From UHGV virus genome UHGV-0202589: a DNA stretch of 12,454 bases, one strand, 5' to 3'. This document shows, in pieces, positions 6,022 through 12,454 of the stretch; the stretch's first letter is position 1, and every line of letters begins with the position of its first letter. The notes beneath the pieces are model-generated. The model was not told the DNA's origin. It did no database searches and was given only the letters and a program-made list of their open reading frames with translations. The position numbers and the translations under genes are program-made. The DNA comes from a virus.

Positions 6022-7302
6022 ATGAGTAACAACGCACGTTCCGGCCTTGGCCGACTTTTTTCGCTGCTGGGTCTGCTGGTCTCGCTGCTGTGGCATCCCT
6101 TGGCGAACGCGGACTTCTACCAATGGCAGATTTCCATCCCTGGAGAGCCCACGGCCTTCTTTCCATCCTATACGGCGGCGTGCCAGTACTACTTCGATAA
6201 CACGTCGGCCAACTGGCTAAAGGAAATCAACAAACTGAGCTACAAGGAAGTTCAGTGCAGTGTTTCGGGTACTGGCGGAATCACCTGGCAGACGAAGACT
6301 GCCATCTTGACTGGTGATAGCTGCCCTCCAGAGCAAGAGCTCGATCCGGCCGATGGCGCCTGCAAGCCGCCGCCCGAAGAGTGCAAGGAAGGGGAACTGT
6401 TTCCGGCCAAGGGCCCGGACTCGCCTGTTGTCACCTCGGGCGGGCGGAACTATGTCGGCGACGGCGGCGCACCGAGCGCCTGTTATCAAAGCTGCGAGTA
6501 CGGCGGCAACCCCAGCCCGGCCAGTTGCTATCTGGTCAAAGGCTCCACCACGACCGGCTTCTGCAATTACATCCTCAAGGGCACCGGACAGAATTGCGGT
6601 GCCGATTCCTACACCTTCGCGCAGACCGGCGATTCGCTGAACCCACCCGACACCCCGAACACCGATCCCTCCGACCCGAACGATCCCGGCTGCCCGCCCG
6701 GCTGGTCGTGGTCGGGGACTACCTGCGTCAAGACCCCGACCGATCCCACGGATCCAACCGACCCAACCACGCCGGGCGGTGATGGCGACGGCGGCGGCGA
6801 TGGCAATGGCGGTGGAGACAACAACGGCGGCGGCAACGACGGCGGCACCGGCAATGGCGGCGACGGCAGCGGGGGAGGGGACGGCAACGGCGGGGGCGAT
6901 GGTAGCGGCGACGGTGACGGCAGCGGCACGGGCGGCGATGGCAACGGTACATGCGACCCGGCGAAAGAGAACTGCTCCACCGGCCCCGAAGGCCCCGGCG
7001 GCGAACTCAAGGAACCCACGCCCGGCACCTGGGATGACGCCATCGCCACCTGGGAAAAGAAGGTCGAGGAAGCCAAGAAAGAACTCAAGACCAAGGTGAA
7101 GGCCAACGTCGACCAGATGAAGGGCGCCTTCGACCTCAACCTGGCGGAAGGCGGCGGGCAACTGCCCTGCGAGCCCATGACCATTTGGGGCAAGTCCTAC
7201 TCCCTCTGTATCTCCGACTACGCCGGCCAACTCTCCAGCCTGCGCGTGGCGCTGCTGCTGATGGCCGCGCTGATCGCCGCCCTCATTCTGCTGAAGGACT
7301 GA
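6022..7302 (+). CDS. coaA: Minor coat / adsorption protein CoaA (pIII-like) of about 426 aa. It has a signal peptide, Cys-rich N-domains, a Gly/Asp/Asn linker and a C-terminal membrane anchor.
   Basis: The signal peptide MSNNARSGLGRLFSLLGLLVSLLWHPLANA is followed by a repeat linker and a C-terminal hydrophobic segment LLLMAALIAALILL. It follows coaB as in Pf1/Pf4. The ATG at 6010 is an alternative start. Confidence 0.8.
   Translation: MSNNARSGLGRLFSLLGLLVSLLWHPLANADFYQWQISIPGEPTAFFPSYTAACQYYFDNTSANWLKEINKLSYKEVQCSVSGTGGITWQTKTAILTGDSCPPEQELDPADGACKPPPEECKEGELFPAKGPDSPVVTSGGRNYVGDGGAPSACYQSCEYGGNPSPASCYLVKGSTTTGFCNYILKGTGQNCGADSYTFAQTGDSLNPPDTPNTDPSDPNDPGCPPGWSWSGTTCVKTPTDPTDPTDPTTPGGDGDGGGDGNGGGDNNGGGNDGGTGNGGDGSGGGDGNGGGDGSGDGDGSGTGGDGNGTCDPAKENCSTGPEGPGGELKEPTPGTWDDAIATWEKKVEEAKKELKTKVKANVDQMKGAFDLNLAEGGGQLPCEPMTIWGKSYSLCISDYAGQLSSLRVALLLMAALIAALILLKD
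6730..6950 (+). repeat. Low-complexity tandem repeats inside coaA: (TDP)n followed by imperfect (GGDGNGGGD)n codon repeats.
   Basis: The nucleotide periodicity ggcgatggcaacggcggn is read directly. It is analogous to the Gly-rich linkers of Ff g3p. Confidence 0.7.
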
Positions 7303-7306
7303 CCCT

Positions 7307-7663
7307 ATGGAATGGCTCTCCGGTTTTCTCGATCAGATCATCGCCTTCTTCCAGTGGATCTGGGATTTCTTCGCCCAGGGCATCTATGACTTCGTGCGCG
7401 ACGGCCTGGTGGTCGCCACCAAGGCGTCGATGTACGCCGCGCTCCAGACCCTGATCCTGCTGATCGATGTCAGCTACACCGCCGCCCGCGAACTGATCGA
7501 CAGCCTCGGCGTGCCGCAGATGATCCGCAGCATGTACGCCGCGCTACCGGGGCCGATTGCGGCGGGTCTGGCCTTCTTCGGCGTGCCGCAGGCGCTGAAC
7601 ATCATCATGGTCGCGGCGGCGACGCGCTTCTGCATGCGCTTCGTGCCGTTCATTGGGAGGTGA
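7307..7663 (+). CDS. Hydrophobic minor virion protein of 118 aa, pVI-like, PA0725 homolog.
   Basis: It is multi-hydrophobic, sits between coaA and zot, and has its ATG 5 nt after the coaA stop. Confidence 0.7.
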   Translation: MEWLSGFLDQIIAFFQWIWDFFAQGIYDFVRDGLVVATKASMYAALQTLILLIDVSYTAARELIDSLGVPQMIRSMYAALPGPIAAGLAFFGVPQALNIIMVAAATRFCMRFVPFIGR

Positions 7664-7666
7664 TCC

Positions 7667-8941
7667 GTGTCGATCAAGATCCACCACGGCCCCAATGGCT
7701 CCTACAAGACCTCCGGCGCTATCCAGGATGACGCCGTGCCCGCGCTGAAAGACGGGCGGGTGATCATCACCAACGTGCGCGGCTTCACCCTGGAGCGGGC
7801 CTATCAGGTCTTTCCGGACCTGCCCAACACGGCGGAGATCATCAACCTCGATCTGGAGTCGCTGGAAGACCTCGAAAAGATGCGCACGTGGTTTCAGTGG
7901 GCGCCCCGCGGGGCCTTCCTGATCTTCGACGAAACCCAACTGCTGTTTCCCAAGTCCTGGCGGGAAAAAGACCTCGAGCGCTTCGACTACCCCGGTGGAC
8001 CGGAAGCGGCCCATGCGGCCGACCGCCCCATGGGCTGGCTCGACGCCTGGACCCGGCACCGGCATTTCAACTGGGACATTGTCCTCACCACGCCGAACAT
8101 CTCCTACATCCGCGACGACATCCGCATGACCTGCGAGATGGCCTACAAGCATTCCAACCTCGCGGTGATCGGCATCCCTGGCCGCTACAAGGAGGCCCAG
8201 CATGACGCCCAACTCAACCGTCCGCCCGCCGATGGCACCATCATCGAGTACAAGCGGATCCGAAAGCAGACCTTCGCCCTCTACCAGTCCACGGCCACCG
8301 GCAAGACCCAGGACACCAAGGCGGGCAAGAGCCTCTTCCGGTCGCCTAAGCTGGTTCTTCTACTGGCATTGCTGGCCGGCACTATTGGCTTTGTCTGGTA
8401 TATGGGGCCTCTGCGCACGATTGGCGGTCCGGCTGCTGCGACACCTGCCGACGCTCCTGGCGACCCTGCTCAAGCCCCTGCTGCGCCCGCTGCTGTGGCT
8501 GCTCCAGCGCGTCCTGCTGCGAATAGCTTTCTTCCTCCTGGGCTTGTACCTGATGGGCCTGCTGCTGCGCCTGTTGATCTGAACGCCCATCCCTTCGCCG
8601 ATCGGCGGATCTCCATCCTTGCCCACGCCTACCGCAAGTCGCGGGGCGATATCTACCTGTTCGCCCTGGAGGATCCCACGGGCCGGCGCCTGGAACTCAC
8701 CAGTTGGCAACTGATCGGCTCCGGCTACCGGGTGACGCCCAAGGGCGAGTGCGTCGTAGAGCTTCGCTATGAGGACTGGAAACAGACCGTCACCTGTGCC
8801 GGGAGGCAGCCCGGCGCGGTGGCCAGCATCGCTCCGGCAGCGCCTGTCGCCGCGTCCGCAGACGCACCGGCCAGGGGCCAGTCGCCGCTGACCATCGTCC
8901 CCGATTCCGAATACGCCTCGCGGCCCTGGAGGCAGAAATGA
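7667..8941 (+). CDS. zot: Zot-like / pI morphogenesis ATPase of 424 aa with an N-terminal P-loop ([10 protein letters not shown]), a central TM segment and an Ala/Pro-rich region.
   Basis: The GTG start has GGGAGG 6 nt upstream. The Walker A motif lies at residues 8-17, as in Zot/gene I proteins. A TM segment [19 protein letters not shown] is present. Confidence 0.85.
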
Positions 8942-9039
8942 TCGATTGGGAATTTCTCGTCCCGGTGGCGATGGGCTGGGCGCTGCATCACTGGTGGACG
9001 GTGATGACGGCGCTAGCGGCGGTAGGGGTGCCGCCATGA
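8938..9039 (+). CDS. Candidate 33-aa hydrophobic micro-protein [33 protein letters not shown], overlapping the zot stop by ATGA.
   Basis: The ATGA overlap suggests translational coupling, and GC3 is high. It is not in the track because it is under 60 aa. Confidence 0.3.
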
Positions 9040-9109
9040 GGGGCGGGCCGCGCCGCCGGCCGGGAGCGCAAGGCATGAGCGATAGGCCGAAGGCGCGGCC
9101 GACGCCCCT
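9040..9109. other. Long-range GC-rich inverted repeat (GGGGCGGGCCGCGCC ... GGCGCGGCCGACGCCCC) in the zot-rep intergenic region. It is a candidate origin, packaging or terminator structure.
   Basis: The arms at 9040..9054 and 9093..9109 are complementary apart from a 2-nt bulge. Confidence 0.4.
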
Positions 9110-9170
9110 GTAACACGTCAGATAACCCCCGATCAGCAACCCCATAGAACCTCATTAACGGGTAAAGAAC

Positions 9171-10463
9171 ATGAAGACTCCGATCCATCCAACGCGACTG
9201 GTCCTCGAAGAGAACGGGGATTTCCACAAGTCCCCGAAGGGGATGCTTTTCATGGACCCGCTCAATGGACAGTTCACCGACCTGTCAGGCGTGCGCATTC
9301 TGCGGTGCGGCGTGGATACGGTGCGGCAGTTGTACAACGGCAAATTGCGTCCGGAAGTGATGGCGCTGTTCGACCTATCGGTGGATGTGGTCGAGTTTGC
9401 CGGCTACGAGTGGTCCAAGGGCCGTATCGGTCGCGACTCTGGCTATCAGTACCGCCTGCAGAACGCCGAAATGGGCCTGATCCTGCTGATCAAGAACCAC
9501 AACATCAAGGTCGACACCATTGGCTCGCACCTCAAGATCGAGGTGTCGCCCCACGCCATTGACGGCGCCGATCCGCGTATTCTCCAGGGCGTGCTGGATG
9601 ACCTGGCCGCGGCGGTGCTGAGTCACTGCGAGACCAACCAAGCAGCCGTGCATATCGCGCTGGATGTGCAGGGCTGGACGCCTCCGGCTGATCTCGTTGA
9701 CCGCATGCATTGCCGCTCGCGTCGGGTGCGGCAAATCAGCGGGATCGAGCGGATCGAGTTCGACGGCAACGCCTCTGTCTACGGGCGTGGCGAGACGTAC
9801 ATGTTCGGCTCGGCCAACGGTCTGCAACTGTCGATCTATAACAAGACTCTCCAGGCTCGGGCCACCGACAAGCTCGACTATTGGGAAAGCGTGTGGGCGA
9901 CCTTGAACGGGGATCCGTTCGGCGATGGCGACCCGGCCTATAACCCCCTGGAAACGGTGTGGCGGATCGAGTTTCGCTATCACCACTCCATCGTCCAGCA
10001 GTTCTCCGAAGGCTCGCGTATGGCTTCGGGAGAGGTCATCGGCTGCCGCACCTACGAGGGCCTTTGCCCGCACCTACAGGGGCTGTGGAACTATGCCTGC
10101 GAGGCATTCCGTGTGCTCTCCCGGGAGGGCATGTATGACGCCTTCTGGAGCCTGATCAGCCAGGATGCCCGCGTCCAGGTCGAGTGCGATCCGCTGATCG
10201 AGCGCACCGAGTATCGGCGCTATTACAAGACCGCCAAGGGCTTTAGCGGGCGCAACTGCGAGATGTTCCTCGGCCAGTTCGTGAGCCTGATCGCGCGGGA
10301 GCGTGTCCCGGCAAAAAAGGCTATTGAGTCCGCCCGCAAATTGGAGTTCTGGCACGTTATCGAAGACCACTATCTCGCCAAGGGTTGGACTCGTCGCGAT
10401 CTGGAAAGGCATATCCACAAGCTCATGTGTGATCGCTATCTGCGCAAGGGATATGCGATATGA
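9171..10463 (+). CDS. Rolling-circle replication initiation protein (gene II-like, PA0727 homolog), 430 aa.
   Basis: Its size, its position between zot and int, and its overall similarity to the Pf replication protein support the call. An in-frame stop lies at 9156..9158, so the ATG at 9171 is the first possible start. Confidence 0.8.
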   Translation: MKTPIHPTRLVLEENGDFHKSPKGMLFMDPLNGQFTDLSGVRILRCGVDTVRQLYNGKLRPEVMALFDLSVDVVEFAGYEWSKGRIGRDSGYQYRLQNAEMGLILLIKNHNIKVDTIGSHLKIEVSPHAIDGADPRILQGVLDDLAAAVLSHCETNQAAVHIALDVQGWTPPADLVDRMHCRSRRVRQISGIERIEFDGNASVYGRGETYMFGSANGLQLSIYNKTLQARATDKLDYWESVWATLNGDPFGDGDPAYNPLETVWRIEFRYHHSIVQQFSEGSRMASGEVIGCRTYEGLCPHLQGLWNYACEAFRVLSREGMYDAFWSLISQDARVQVECDPLIERTEYRRYYKTAKGFSGRNCEMFLGQFVSLIARERVPAKKAIESARKLEFWHVIEDHYLAKGWTRRDLERHIHKLMCDRYLRKGYAI

Positions 10464-11461
10464 CGGTACGCAAGGACGGCAAGACGTGGACGGCTGACTT
10501 CTATGAGAATGGTCGTTCCGGGCGCAGGATTCGCAAGAAAGGCTTCGCTACCAAGTCTGCCGCGATTCGCTATGAGCAGGATTTTTTTGCCGTGAAGGGC
10601 GAGACGGGCCGACCGCTGGATGACCGCCTCTCCGATCTGGTGAAGGTTTGGTATGACCTCCACGGCTGCACCTTGAAGGATGGCAAGCAACGCTTGGCGC
10701 GCTGCGAGGCGCTGGCGAAGCGGCTAGGGAACCCCTTGGCGTTCGAGTTCGATTCGTTGGCGTGGGCACGCTACCGGCAACGTCGCTTGACCGAGGTGAA
10801 GCCTGAGACGGTCAATCACGAGCAACGCTACTTGTCGGCGGTCTTCTCTGAACTGATTCGCCTGGGCTCCTGGCACAAGGAAAACCCGCTGGGCAAGGTC
10901 CGGCAAATCAAGACGGATCAGGTCGAACTTACGTTTCTGTCCCTGGATCAGGTCGCTCGACTGCTGGAAGAGTGCAAGGCCAGTACGAACAACCATACCT
11001 ATCCGGTCGCGCTGTTGTGTCTCGCCACGGGAGCCCGCTGGGAAGAGGCGGAAAGCCTGACGCGGGGCGCTGTGCATGGCGGCAAGGTGCACTATCACCG
11101 GACCAAGAATCGGCAGAGCCGATCAGTGCCGATCCCGGACGAGTTGGAGAGGTTGATATTCAAGGTGGGCATGCCTGGATCTGGCCGCCTGTTCATGTCC
11201 TGCCGCGCCGCGTTCCGCTGCGCCTATCAGCGTTGCGGGTTCCAGACGCCGGGCCAGATGACCCACATTCTCCGCCATACCTTCGCCAGCCACTACATGA
11301 TGGGGGGAGGGGACATCCTGACCCTACAGCGGATCCTCGGCCACTCATCGATCACGATGACCATGCGGTATGCGCACCTATCGCCGGAGCATTTGGCCTC
11401 GGCTATGAGCCTGTCCCCGCTGTATCAGATAAAGCACTTCGCTAGTCAGGTACACCAGTAG
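10460..11461 (+). CDS. int: Tyrosine recombinase / phage integrase of 333 aa (IntF-like).
   Basis: The C-terminal catalytic region HILRHTFASHYMMGGGDILTLQRILGHSSITMTMRYAHL carries the R-H-R-Y signature. Its ATG overlaps the rep stop (ATGA). It is adjacent to the tRNA-like att fragment. Confidence 0.9.
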   Translation: MTVRKDGKTWTADFYENGRSGRRIRKKGFATKSAAIRYEQDFFAVKGETGRPLDDRLSDLVKVWYDLHGCTLKDGKQRLARCEALAKRLGNPLAFEFDSLAWARYRQRRLTEVKPETVNHEQRYLSAVFSELIRLGSWHKENPLGKVRQIKTDQVELTFLSLDQVARLLEECKASTNNHTYPVALLCLATGARWEEAESLTRGAVHGGKVHYHRTKNRQSRSVPIPDELERLIFKVGMPGSGRLFMSCRAAFRCAYQRCGFQTPGQMTHILRHTFASHYMMGGGDILTLQRILGHSSITMTMRYAHLSPEHLASAMSLSPLYQIKHFASQVHQ

Positions 11462-11852
11462 AAGCCTTTTCAGGTTTTTCCAGGGAGCTATCAATACGGC
11501 TGAGGAGGTTTCGCTCCTGAACGACCCAAATCTTCGGAGCGGCATAACCCACAACGAAGGATAGAGCCCATATCTTTGCAAAAACTGCTGGTGTCTCTTG
11601 TAGTGCTCCAATGAAGTACAGCCCAACAACGAAGCCTAATACGCCTCCAACAAAAAGCCGCATGAATAGCCATGCGGAGCGAAGTTCTTGTAGTTGAGTC
11701 GAGGCGAGTTTCATATCTCCTTCCTTGCGGGGAAGGTGAGTGAGGTTGTAATTCGCGACCATTGTCTGTGCCAGGCTCCCAAAGATCGCACCGATAGTGC
11801 AGGCAATGGGAAGAAGCACGTCAAACATAGAAAAGCCGAGTTCGCTGAACAT
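11442..11852 (-). CDS. Membrane protein with 2-3 predicted TM helices, about 136 aa from ATG 11852. The track's 159-aa form extends to 11921. It belongs to the AT-rich cargo and is convergent with int, overlapping its 3' end by 20 nt.
   Basis: Hydrophobic segments include FDVLLPIACTIGAIFGSLAQTMV, WLFMRLFVGGVLGFVVGLYFIGAL and IWALSFVVGYAAP. GC is about 48%, lower than the core. It lies downstream of the tRNA-like fragment and terminator, in the same orientation. Confidence 0.5.
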   Translation of the reverse strand: MFSELGFSMFDVLLPIACTIGAIFGSLAQTMVANYNLTHLPRKEGDMKLASTQLQELRSAWLFMRLFVGGVLGFVVGLYFIGALQETPAVFAKIWALSFVVGYAAPKIWVVQERNLLSRIDSSLEKPEKASTGVPD

Positions 11853-11923
11853 GTCCCTTGTCTCTACTGGCTGATGACCGAAGGGTAGGGCAGAGGCAGG
11901 GGTGAGGGAAGAGGTAGACACGC

Positions 11924-11943
11924 TGTAGTCACTTTGTAGTCAC
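11924..11943 (+). repeat. Two direct copies of TGTAGTCAC spaced 11 bp apart (11924..11932 and 11935..11943). They are candidate integrase or excisionase arm-type binding sites.
   Basis: Read directly. The motif resembles the tRNA acceptor 3' end GGTGTAGCCACC in inverted orientation. Confidence 0.4.
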
Positions 11944-11950
11944 CACAGGC

Positions 11951-11990
11951 AAAAGAAAAGGGGTTAGCTTGCGCTAACCCCTTGAAAAAT
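11951..11990 (-). terminator. Rho-independent terminator on the - strand: the GGGGTTAGC-ttgc-GCTAACCCC perfect 9-bp stem (11960..11981) followed on the - strand by TTTTCTTTT. It lies immediately 3' of the tRNA-like fragment.
   Basis: Read directly. The geometry would terminate the reconstituted tRNA after integration. Confidence 0.55.
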
Positions 11991-11991
11991 A

Positions 11992-12037
11992 TGGTGGCTA
12001 CACCGGGACTTGAACCTGGGACATCAGCATTATGAAT
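11992..12037 (-). other. attP core candidate. It is a degenerate 3' portion of a tRNA-Met(CAT)-like sequence (anticodon loop, T-arm, acceptor 3' strand and CCA); it is not an intact tRNA.
   Basis: The minus strand reads ATTCATAATGCTGATGTCCCAGGTTCAAGTCCCGGTGTAGCCACCA. This resembles the elongator tRNA-Met 3' half as I recall it (...CTCATAATGATGGGGTCACAGGTTCGAATCCCGTCGTAGCCACCA). The T-stem has an A-C mismatch. The acceptor 5' strand complement GGCTACA is absent upstream. Confidence 0.55.
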
Positions 12038-12138
12038 CGCATGAATCATGCCCTCCTTTACCCTAGAACTCCATAGACTGGCTCTTTTCGCGGTCCCGTT
12101 TCCCTATAGGAACACACTTTTTCTGACAGCATAGCTGG

Positions 12139-12147
12139 TGTAGTCAC
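12139..12147 (+). repeat. Third copy of TGTAGTCAC, within GGTGTAGTCACC, on the other side of the attP core.
   Basis: Read directly. It differs by 1 nt from the tRNA-like 3' end GGTGTAGCCACC, in inverted orientation. Confidence 0.4.
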
Positions 12148-12443
12148 CTCTAAGCTCTTTACGGGAGATGCCTTCTCGCGTTAGCTTCAGAGGATGGCCT
12201 CTTGCCATGGGCGCTCGGGAGACAAGGATGATCCATTGCCGTATAGCTTTGACTATCAAATCTTATAGAGAATTTCTGGCTCCTTCTCCTTTGCTGCGGT
12301 TGGCAAACTTATTGCGTTCATGTGGCTACCTCTGTGTCCTTAGTGATAGGGCGCTATAGGGGCTAAAGTTCAGTTGCTAATGAGGAATGGTGGTTTTTAA
12401 GTTTATATTATTATATTTGGTTTTTCGGGAAATCACTCTTGAT

Positions 12444-12454
12444 AAGGAGGGAGT
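12444..12454 (+). promoter_or_regulatory. Shine-Dalgarno sequence AAGGAGG for the gene starting at position 1, across the circular junction. An AT-rich putative promoter region lies upstream, about 12360..12440.
   Basis: The window ends ...GATAAGGAGGGAGT and starts ATGCTAAGT. Confidence 0.5.

What the first reader, a model, noticed from the sequence alone, without database searches (positions are those of the whole stretch)
11992..12037. attP is a degenerate tRNA-Met-like 3' half next to int, which predicts integration into a host tRNA-Met gene
The minus strand carries ...TTCATAATGCTGATGTCCCAGGTTCAAGTCCCGGTGTAGCCACCA. This is an anticodon loop with CAT, a T-arm and an acceptor 3' end ending in CCA, closely resembling elongator tRNA-Met. 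It has a T-stem A-C mismatch, and no complementary acceptor 5' strand (GGCTACA) exists upstream. It is therefore the phage copy of the att core rather than a gene. Integration would regenerate the tRNA 3' end from phage DNA. I recall Pf4 using tRNA-Gly, so this element belongs to a different integration lineage.
Basis: partly seen in the sequence, partly recalled or inferred. Interest (0 to 1): 0.55.

Follow-up and report, generated by a model that had tools for sequence, protein, structure and literature searches.

The report
Known Pf phage tRNA-Met attachment site
The 46 bases are an exact phage-borne copy of the 3' part of a Pseudomonas tRNA-Met gene, serving as the attachment site a Pf filamentous phage uses to insert into that gene; this site is real but already described in the literature.

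Summary
Window 12037..11992 (minus strand) carries 46 nt running from the anticodon loop (CAT) to CCA. No tRNA is called there and no 5' half exists.

It is not degenerate. It matches positions 31-76 of the Pseudomonadaceae elongator-type tRNA-Met gene exactly. The A51-C63 "mismatch" is native to that gene: 100 full genes carry it.

The window is a circularly permuted Pf filamentous phage of P. aeruginosa, so the fragment sits in attP configuration. In lysogens the same integrase gene lies beside an intact tRNA-Met next to ychF. The displaced 46-nt fragment marks the other prophage end, next to higBA.

Identity among attP, attL and attR spans 82 bp (11956-12037): 46 nt of tRNA plus 36 nt of terminator. 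Three exact TGTAGTCAC repeats flank this core. The integrase is of the HP1/P2 type. Nineteen fragments in other species lose identity at the same anticodon-loop boundary, which suggests crossover in the anticodon loop. That crossover position is inferred, not shown.

All of this matches the published Pf-tRNA-Met group (Pf6/RGP42, Pf7), whose attP is described as a 46-bp tRNA-Met fragment. Verdict: real, correctly interpreted, already known, low interest.

The parts
11992..12037 (-). 46-nt exact copy of tRNA-Met positions 31-76. It covers the last base of the anticodon stem 5' strand, the anticodon loop with CAT, the variable loop, the T arm, the acceptor 3' strand and CCA. This is the tRNA part of the attP core.
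   Evidence: It is identical to the 3' part of 100 full tRNA-Met genes and to attL and attR in lysogens. Published as the 46-bp attP of Pf6.
11956..12037 (.). 82-bp block identical in attP, attL and attR, and therefore in attB. It comprises 46 nt of tRNA plus 36 nt downstream that include the terminator hairpin.
   Evidence: The window differs from the attL host flank only at 11955 and below, and from the attR host flank only at 12038 and above.
12030..12036 (-). Anticodon loop TTCATAA, the inferred strand-exchange (overlap) region at the 5' edge of the identity block.
   Evidence: This is an inference. Identity starts 1 nt 5' of this loop here. It starts 1 nt 5' of the loop in 17, and at the loop's first base in 2, of 19 displaced fragments with unrelated arms in other species. 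The 'A' (anticodon-centred) attP class is described in Hudson et al. 2015.
11951..11983 (-). Intrinsic-terminator-like hairpin AAGGGGTTAGCGCAAGCTAACCCCTT with a T tail, immediately 3' of the tRNA fragment. After integration it follows the regenerated tRNA-Met.
   Evidence: 11 pairs, 6 GC. One search gives a terminator-only resemblance to BjrC68. One search shows the phage-type flank following the intact tRNA in L123-L130.
11924..11943 (+). Two exact direct repeats TGTAGTCAC (11924-11932 and 11935-11943) in the int-proximal arm. These are candidate arm-type integrase binding sites. A degenerate copy, GGTAGACAC, lies just before them at 11913-11921.
   Evidence: 3 exact copies in 12.4 kb, all within 224 bp around the core. 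They are conserved at the same place in phage 54-4 and PfAC11. Binding is inferred, not shown.
12139..12147 (+). Third exact TGTAGTCAC repeat, in the other arm about 100 bp from the core.
   Evidence: It is conserved (as GTAGTCAC) in the otherwise diverged arms of 54-4 and PfAC11, followed by the conserved CTTTACGG and TCTCGCG(T/C)TAG blocks.
12038..12185 (.). Cargo-proximal attP arm. Only patchy conserved blocks are shared with other Pf-tRNA-Met phages, and similarity ends beyond about 12185.
   Evidence: Alignment. It is identical to the phage side of attL in L131.
10460..11461 (+). Tyrosine integrase, 333 aa, of the HP1/P2 type.
   Evidence: Pfam Int_N 3.8e-33 and Phage_integrase 9.1e-20. 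PDB 5c6k 2e-47 and HP1 integrase 1aih 1e-43, with the ATGARW, HILRH and MRYAH motifs aligned. The identical protein sits next to tRNA-Met in P. aeruginosa chromosomes.
11442..11852 (-). Small ORF (136 aa as called in lysogens) between int and attP, convergent with int. Function unknown.
   Evidence: Called in L124-L130 at 6983..7393 and annotated as ORF19, hypothetical, in PfAC11. No Pfam or PADLOC hit.
3552..3824 (+). Probable excisionase, the partner of int for excision.
   Evidence: Weak HTH_17 hit. The homologous ORFs in PfAC11 and 54-4 are annotated as excisionase. Xis-Met is reported as specific to Pf-tRNA-Met prophages. It was not compared directly with the published Xis-Met sequence.

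Best explanation
The feature is the attP core of a Pf filamentous phage of the Pf-tRNA-Met group. The double-stranded replicative form carries an exact copy of the last 46 nt of one host tRNA-Met gene (PA4673.1 in PAO1 nomenclature) plus 36 nt of its terminator.

The phage's own HP1/P2-type tyrosine integrase pairs this 82-bp block with the identical block in the chromosome. It is probably helped by arm-type TGTAGTCAC repeats on both sides of the core. Strands are exchanged most likely within the anticodon loop, at the 5' edge of the block.

The prophage then lies between an intact tRNA-Met and a displaced 46-nt fragment. The intact gene has a host 5' part and is followed by the phage terminator, the repeats and int. 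The displaced fragment is followed by the original host terminator and higBA. The tRNA gene is therefore never lost. Excision, with the phage excisionase, reverses the reaction.

Shown here: the sequence identity, the att configurations in lysogens, the integrase family and the repeats. Inferred: the exact crossover position and protein binding to the repeats.
For: Nature of the fragment:
- It is exact and non-random.
- No tRNA gene is called in the window.
- The host gene was identified: 100 full tRNA-Met(CAT) genes in Pseudomonadaceae carry the identical 3' 46 nt, including A51-C63.

Configuration of the window:
- It is 100% identical over 1-10715 to a prophage in chromosome CP093354.1.
- There, window 11992-12454 directly precedes window position 1. 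The window is therefore a circular permutation with a single internal core flanked by both phage arms.

Lysogens:
- In eight chromosomes the identical 333-aa integrase is followed by the same repeats and terminator, then an intact tRNA-Met (7533..7609, minus strand). In six of these ychF-pth-rplY-prs follow; in L123 and L128 an AlpA-like gene and a mer operon follow instead.
- Phage 54-4 is deposited with 66-bp terminal direct repeats that contain this fragment.
- The common core is 82 bp.

Supporting features:
- Arm repeats.
- Integrase family and catalytic motifs.
- The identity boundary at the anticodon loop is shared by 19 fragments with different arms.

Literature:
- Pf6 in PA4673.1 and Pf7 in tRNA-Met (PMC7047154).
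- PfAC11, 97% identical across int up to the attP core, lysogenised PAO1 (PMC11878078).
Against: - Nothing contradicts the attP reading.
- The crossover point cannot be located by sequence, because the 82 bp are identical in all four sites.
- My genome scan only recovered fragments that include the anticodon loop, so it could not reveal T-loop-type fragments.
- I cannot verify that the window was obtained from a physically circular molecule rather than from a prophage circularised in silico. The Campbell model gives the same attP either way.
- No unoccupied P. aeruginosa attB was retrieved; attB was reconstructed from attL and attR.
Confidence: 0.93

Rival explanations
1. The fragment is a prophage-chromosome junction (attL or attR) because the window is a piece of bacterial chromosome, not a phage attP.
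For: The same fragment does occur at such junctions in chromosomes. Several deposited Pf 'genomes' are in fact excised prophage coordinates.
Against: Both flanks in the window are phage DNA. The side at and above 12038 equals the phage side of attL in L131. The side at and below 11955 equals the phage side of attR in L123-L130. No host gene (ychF, higBA) is in the window. The last bases of the window hold a Shine-Dalgarno sequence for the ATG at position 1, and the two ends are contiguous in L131.
Confidence: 0.03
2. Integration is at this site, but strand exchange takes place in the T loop or at the T-stem/acceptor junction rather than in the anticodon loop. The anticodon-side identity would then be only passenger homology.
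For: Those subsites are common for tRNA-integrating elements (PMC4383910). The identical 82-bp block does not let sequence decide.
Against: Elements that cross over in the T loop need only restore about 20-25 nt, yet here identity begins exactly at the anticodon loop. Nineteen fragments with unrelated arms in other species stop at the same base. The integrase's closest characterised relative is HP1 integrase, which I recall crossing over in the anticodon loop of tRNA-Leu. That recollection is from memory and was not checked here.
Confidence: 0.15
3. The fragment is an inert relic: a dead attP in a phage that no longer integrates, as in Pf1.
For: Pf1 lacks this region and has a truncated int (match only to 3551-10759). 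Some chromosomes hold rearranged arrays of such fragments (L041 and L063).
Against: - int is full length with catalytic motifs.
- The identical protein is recorded in thousands of assemblies.
- The core is 100% identical to the host gene.
- The arm repeats are intact.
- The very same phage is found integrated at the site.
- The near-identical PfAC11 lysogenised PAO1 experimentally.
Confidence: 0.04
4. It is a phage-encoded functional tRNA or tRNA-like RNA gene.
For: It has an anticodon loop, T arm, CCA and a terminator in the right order.
Against: There is no 5' acceptor strand, D arm or anticodon-stem partner. ARAGORN and Rfam are negative. No promoter-like site occurs in 11400-12454.
Confidence: 0.01

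Closest known systems
attP of the Pf-tRNA-Met group of P. aeruginosa filamentous phages (Pf6/RGP42 in MPAO1, Pf7 in PA7; Klockgether 2010 as cited in Fiedoruk 2020, PMC7549136)
   Same: The same 46-bp tRNA-Met fragment, the same target gene next to ychF (PA4673.1), the same integrase type and the same Pf core genes. Identity to deposited Pf-tRNA-Met phages across int and attP is 95-98%.
   Different: Nothing differs at the att site. Only the cargo on the far side of attP differs: an ABC-3C-type module here, versus Avs, retron, nuclease and other modules in deposited relatives. Here I additionally delimit an 82-bp common core and three arm repeats. I did not see these stated in the passages I read.
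HP1 and P2 phage integration systems (tyrosine integrases; PDB 1aih and 5c6k)
   Same: The integrase is a clear homologue (E 1e-43 and 2e-47). It has an attP with a core flanked by arm repeats. For HP1 (from memory) the target is a tRNA gene whose 3' part is duplicated in attP, with crossover in the anticodon loop.
   Different: The carrier here is a filamentous ssDNA phage, not a tailed phage. The target is tRNA-Met, not tRNA-Leu (HP1) or a non-tRNA site (P2, from memory). Accessory-factor requirements were not examined.
Pf4 attP (27-bp tRNA-Gly fragment)
   Same: The same phage genus, and the same logic of a tRNA 3' fragment plus a dedicated integrase.
   Different: A different tRNA and a shorter fragment (27 bp). 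Integrase types share only 40-62% identity, and the excisionase type differs.
CTXphi-type filamentous phage integration at dif by host XerCD
   Same: A filamentous phage that lysogenises by site-specific recombination.
   Different: The Pf phage brings its own integrase and targets a tRNA gene (discussion passage). No dependence on dif or XerCD is indicated, and none was tested here.

Membership tests
Pf-tRNA-Met group attP | attP contains the 46-bp 3' fragment of the specific P. aeruginosa tRNA-Met gene | tested here: met
   46/46 identity to the tRNA-Met in lysogens and to 100 full genes. The definition is given.
Pf-tRNA-Met group attP | Integrase of the type that co-occurs only with tRNA-Met insertion | tested here: met
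   The identical 333-aa protein is encoded 530 bp from an intact tRNA-Met in 8 of the 8 chromosomal places shown.
Pf-tRNA-Met group attP | Pf (Primolicivirus-like) core genome: ssDNA-binding protein, CoaB, CoaA, Zot and replication initiator | tested here: met
   95-98% nucleotide identity to Pf phages over 2790-11991. Annotations are; Zot, DUF2523 and Phage_Coat_B appear.
Pf-tRNA-Met group attP | Xis-Met type excisionase | tested here: inconclusive
   ORF 3552-3824 has only a weak HTH_17 hit and lies where PfAC11 and 54-4 annotate an excisionase. It was not compared with WP_025324668.1.
tRNA-gene integration by a tyrosine integrase (Campbell model, anticodon-centred 'A' subsite) | The prophage is bounded by a regenerated intact tRNA gene and a displaced 3' fragment in direct orientation | tested here: met
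   attR carries an intact tRNA-Met (L123-L130). attL carries the fragment and no tRNA call (L131).
tRNA-gene integration by a tyrosine integrase (Campbell model, anticodon-centred 'A' subsite) | The identity block starts at the anticodon loop and runs through the 3' end | tested here: met
   The block is 11956-12037 and starts at tRNA position 31. The same boundary occurs in 19 other fragments.
tRNA-gene integration by a tyrosine integrase (Campbell model, anticodon-centred 'A' subsite) | Strand exchange physically occurs within the anticodon loop | not testable with these tools
   All four att sites are identical over the block, so cleavage mapping is needed.
tRNA-gene integration by a tyrosine integrase (Campbell model, anticodon-centred 'A' subsite) | Tyrosine recombinase with the catalytic Arg, His-x-x-Arg and Tyr motifs | tested here: met
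   ATGARW, HILRH and MRYAH are aligned to the PDB integrase 5c6k.
Functional tRNA gene | Complete cloverleaf with the 5' acceptor strand, D arm and both anticodon-stem strands | tested here: not met
   ARAGORN finds 0 genes. There is no Rfam tRNA hit. No GGCTACA lies on the minus strand upstream. The sequence 5' of position 31 is unrelated to the tRNA.

The most novel reading that the evidence does not exclude
The identity beyond the tRNA may not be a coincidence of terminators. The 'empty' chromosomal site may itself be a fossil of an earlier element of the same integrase family.

Downstream of the displaced fragment the host flank carries, in order:
- the same terminator;
- GACTACA/GTCTAC-type repeat relics;
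- higA-higB;
- a 42-codon remnant of an integrase C-terminus, 67% identical to the Pf integrase (E 3e-12) and in the same order and orientation as in the phage.

If so, the core-genome HigBA toxin-antitoxin of P. aeruginosa would be surviving cargo of a decayed tRNA-Met element. The int-proximal arm of Pf attP would then be homologous to, rather than merely matching, the host flank. That could also permit RecA-mediated insertion or tandem arrays.
Probability: 0.45. Interest if true: 0.25.

Novelty: already known. Interest (0 to 1): 0.08.

Why it matters
The finding matters little as a discovery. The tRNA-Met attP of Pf phages has been published since 2010 and is the basis of the current Pf-tRNA-Met nomenclature.

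Its practical value is for annotation. It fixes the true ends of this prophage type and shows that the tRNA-like piece must not be called a tRNA or a pseudogene. It also identifies the window as a complete, circularly permuted Pf genome with a working-looking integration module.

The refined anatomy may help people who build Pf deletion or integration tools. That anatomy is the 82-bp common core, three arm repeats, and a phage-supplied terminator for the regenerated tRNA.

Tried and rejected
- **, no biological meaning.** My first genome scan returned nothing because I mistyped the pattern, dropping one C of the T stem.
- **P. aeruginosa representative not retrieved.** It was not among those 120 loci, so I obtained P. 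aeruginosa context through exact-protein look-ups instead. No unoccupied attB from P. aeruginosa was retrieved.
- **Rfam.** The only hit, BjrC68 at 24.7 bits against a gathering score of 39, covers just the terminator hairpin. I rejected it as a family assignment.
- **tmRNA 3' end.** I considered whether the roughly 420 nt upstream of the fragment plus the fragment could be one. I rejected this because ARAGORN was negative, the acceptor matches tRNA-Met, and the upstream part is cargo-specific and not conserved among relatives.
- **61-codon ORF.** An ORF from ATG 12049 (minus strand), preceded by AAGGAGG, runs through the fragment and terminator. It is not called in any lysogen, so I treated it as spurious.
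- **Role in phage replication.** I rejected a role for the attP region in replication because Pf1 lacks everything beyond window 10759.
- **E. coli comparison not run.** I did not run the planned check of the A51-C63 feature against E. coli tRNA-Met. The 100 Pseudomonadaceae genes already settle the point.

Full report
**What is in the sequence**

- A 45-nt pattern for it, with two positions left free, occurs once in the window and never in 200 shuffles.
- ARAGORN finds no tRNA or tmRNA anywhere in the window.
- Rfam gives no tRNA hit. Its single sub-threshold match (BjrC68, 24.7 bits against a gathering score of 39) covers only the hairpin that follows the fragment.
- That hairpin, AAGGGGTTAGCGCAAGCTAACCCCTT plus a T run at 11983..11951, is also picked up as terminator-like.
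- The complementary acceptor 5' strand GGCTACA is absent from the minus strand.

**What the window is**

The window matches Pf filamentous phages of Pseudomonas aeruginosa at 95-98% over about 2790-11991. These include 54-4, PfAC11, PfAC02a and PfAC04.

It has the usual gene order: repressor, excisionase, ssDNA-binding protein, CoaB, CoaA, Zot, replication initiator, integrase.

The first 2.7 kb are low-GC cargo (36-40% GC) and are not found in the phage collection.

The last bases of the window carry AAGGAGG, and position 1 is the ATG of the first cargo ORF. In chromosome CP093354.1 (L131) the prophage is 100% identical to window 1-10715, and window 11992-12454 lies directly in front of window position 1. 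The window is therefore a circular permutation of this phage, and the fragment lies inside it with phage DNA on both sides.

**The host gene**

- Of the 121 matches, 100 are the 3' part of a full gene: GGCTACATAGCTCAGT(C/T)GGTTAGAGCGCAGCA followed by the 45-mer. ARAGORN calls tRNA-Met(CAT) in each of the four such loci I submitted.
- The phage copy is exact over 46 nt. Identity to the tRNA stops at position 30/31, one base 5' of the anticodon loop.

**Integrated forms**

The identical 333-aa integrase is recorded in thousands of assemblies. In the eight chromosomal places shown, reading rightwards in window orientation (the small ORF is not in the gene call for two of them, L123 and L125):
- int is followed by the small convergent ORF;
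- then by the same repeats and terminator;
- then by an intact tRNA-Met (7533..7609, minus strand);
- and, in six of them, by ychF, pth, rplY and prs. In L123 and L128 an AlpA-like gene and a mer operon follow instead.

At the other prophage end (L131) the 46-nt fragment has no 5' half. On one side it is joined to window 12038-12454. On the other it is joined to a host-type terminator tail (TGTTTTGG...) and higA/higB.

Phage 54-4 was deposited with 66-bp terminal direct repeats made of this fragment plus 20 nt of the terminator.

Base-by-base comparison shows that the window departs from the attL host flank only at 11955 and below, and from the attR host flank only at 12038 and above. The block common to attP, attL and attR, and hence attB, is 11956-12037. 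That is 82 bp: 46 of tRNA and 36 of terminator.

**Further anatomy**

The 9-mer TGTAGTCAC occurs exactly three times in 12.4 kb, all in one orientation. Two copies are in the int-proximal arm (11924, 11935) and one in the other arm (12139). All are conserved in 54-4 and PfAC11, although the surrounding cargo-side arm is otherwise only patchily similar and diverges completely beyond about 150 bp from the core. These repeats look like arm-type integrase sites, but binding is an inference.

The integrase has Int_N and Phage_integrase domains. It is closest to PDB 5c6k (2e-47) and to HP1 integrase 1aih (1e-43), with the Arg, His-x-x-Arg and Tyr motifs aligned.

**Where exchange happens**

Sequence cannot tell within an identical block. 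However, 19 displaced fragments in other species have quite different arms (for example ...CTCATGCGA...GTAGCGGA...CAAGCGA). In 17 of them identity to the tRNA extends one base 5' of the anticodon loop, and in 2 it stops at the loop's first base; none extends further. This is the signature of the anticodon-centred attP class described by Hudson, Lau and Williams (PMC4383910).

One caveat applies. My pattern began at the loop, so shorter T-loop-type fragments could not be seen. I rate the anticodon-loop crossover as likely (about 0.7-0.8), not shown.

**Comparison with what is known**

- Fiedoruk et al. [quoted passage not shown] They count 65 Pf-tRNA-Met prophages and show a one-to-one link between insertion site and integrase type. 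They also note that only one of the four tRNA-Met variants is used.
- The Secor review places Pf6 in PA4673.1 and Pf7 in the PA7 tRNA-Met (PMC7047154).
- RGP42 is described next to tRNA-Met with its integrase PA4673.2 (PMC4410645).
- PfAC11, 97% identical across int up to the attP core, is listed as a tRNA-Met phage and lysogenised PAO1 (PMC11878078).

The feature is therefore a member of a described class. Only the cargo of this particular phage is not in the phage collection.

**Verdict**

The feature is already known and of low interest. The small additions here are the 82-bp common core, the three arm repeats and the shared identity boundary across species.

Noticed in passing
window 1-2715 (ORFs 1-255, 239-811, 771-1028, 997-2715): Low-GC (36-40%) cargo operon that looks like an ABC-three-component (ABC-3C) conflict system. 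It has a weak CTD10-like protein, a Middle Component 6 protein (1.2e-10) and a 572-aa DUF2326 protein that matches PADLOC candidate PDC-M68B (1.2e-38). It is not present in any record of the phage collection. The 572-aa protein was found on only 6 contigs.
   Followed up: partly
L131 5611-6541 (host flank of attL in CP093354.1): The 'host' side of the site carries a 42-codon remnant of an integrase C-terminus, including MRYAHLSPEHL. It is 67% identical to the Pf integrase (E 3e-12) and in the same orientation. It is followed by higB/higA, GACTACA/GTCTAC-like repeat relics, the same terminator and the displaced fragment. The core-genome HigBA locus may be the remains of an older element integrated at this tRNA-Met. 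I did not find this stated in the papers I searched.
   Followed up: partly
L041 6135-8000 and L063 1-6818 (P. paraeruginosa ATCC 9027, one contig): A rearranged Pf remnant follows the intact tRNA-Met. Window 10798-11419 is joined to 5971, so the CoaA-Zot-replication region is missing. Two further tRNA fragments and another int 3' remnant follow. One fragment has G instead of A at T-stem position 51, which would close the A-C pair. The arms appear swapped relative to a simple single insertion.
   Followed up: partly
L123 and L128, 7610-12700: In these two chromosomes the DNA beyond the 5' end of the intact tRNA-Met is not ychF. It is an AlpA-like gene, a 304-aa ORF and a mer operon (MerR, MerT, MerP-like, MerA). 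Another mobile element therefore abuts the other side of the same tRNA gene.
   Followed up: no
L006, L015, L026, L027, L053, L058, L066, L071, L072, L074, L075, L081, L093, L097, L110, L120 and others: Nineteen displaced copies of the same tRNA-Met 3' part were found in other Pseudomonas, Stutzerimonas, Ectopseudomonas and Aquipseudomonas genomes. They fall into several distinct arm families, so this tRNA-Met is a multi-element integration hot spot across the family. The elements themselves were not examined.
   Followed up: partly
L017 (Candidatus Magnetobacterium casense contig, 3.7 kb), L079 (Pedobacter MAG), L047 and L093 (Marmoricola MAG): The Pseudomonas-type tRNA-Met 3' part, or its displaced fragment, occurs on short contigs assigned to unrelated phyla. 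In L017 it carries the same CTCATGCGA arm junction and terminator as the Pf attP. These are probably Pseudomonas contamination or mis-binning.
   Followed up: no
window 11864-12049 (minus strand): A 61-codon ORF starts at ATG 12049, two bases after AAGGAGG, and reads through the tRNA fragment and terminator. It is not called in any lysogen and is probably spurious.
   Followed up: no
window 11442-11852 (minus strand): A 136-aa ORF sits between int and attP, convergent with int and co-directional with the tRNA fragment. The translation looks hydrophobic, and it has no Pfam or PADLOC hit. Phage 54-4 has an unrelated 'membrane protein' gene on the opposite strand at the same place, so this slot is a second small variable region.
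   Followed up: no
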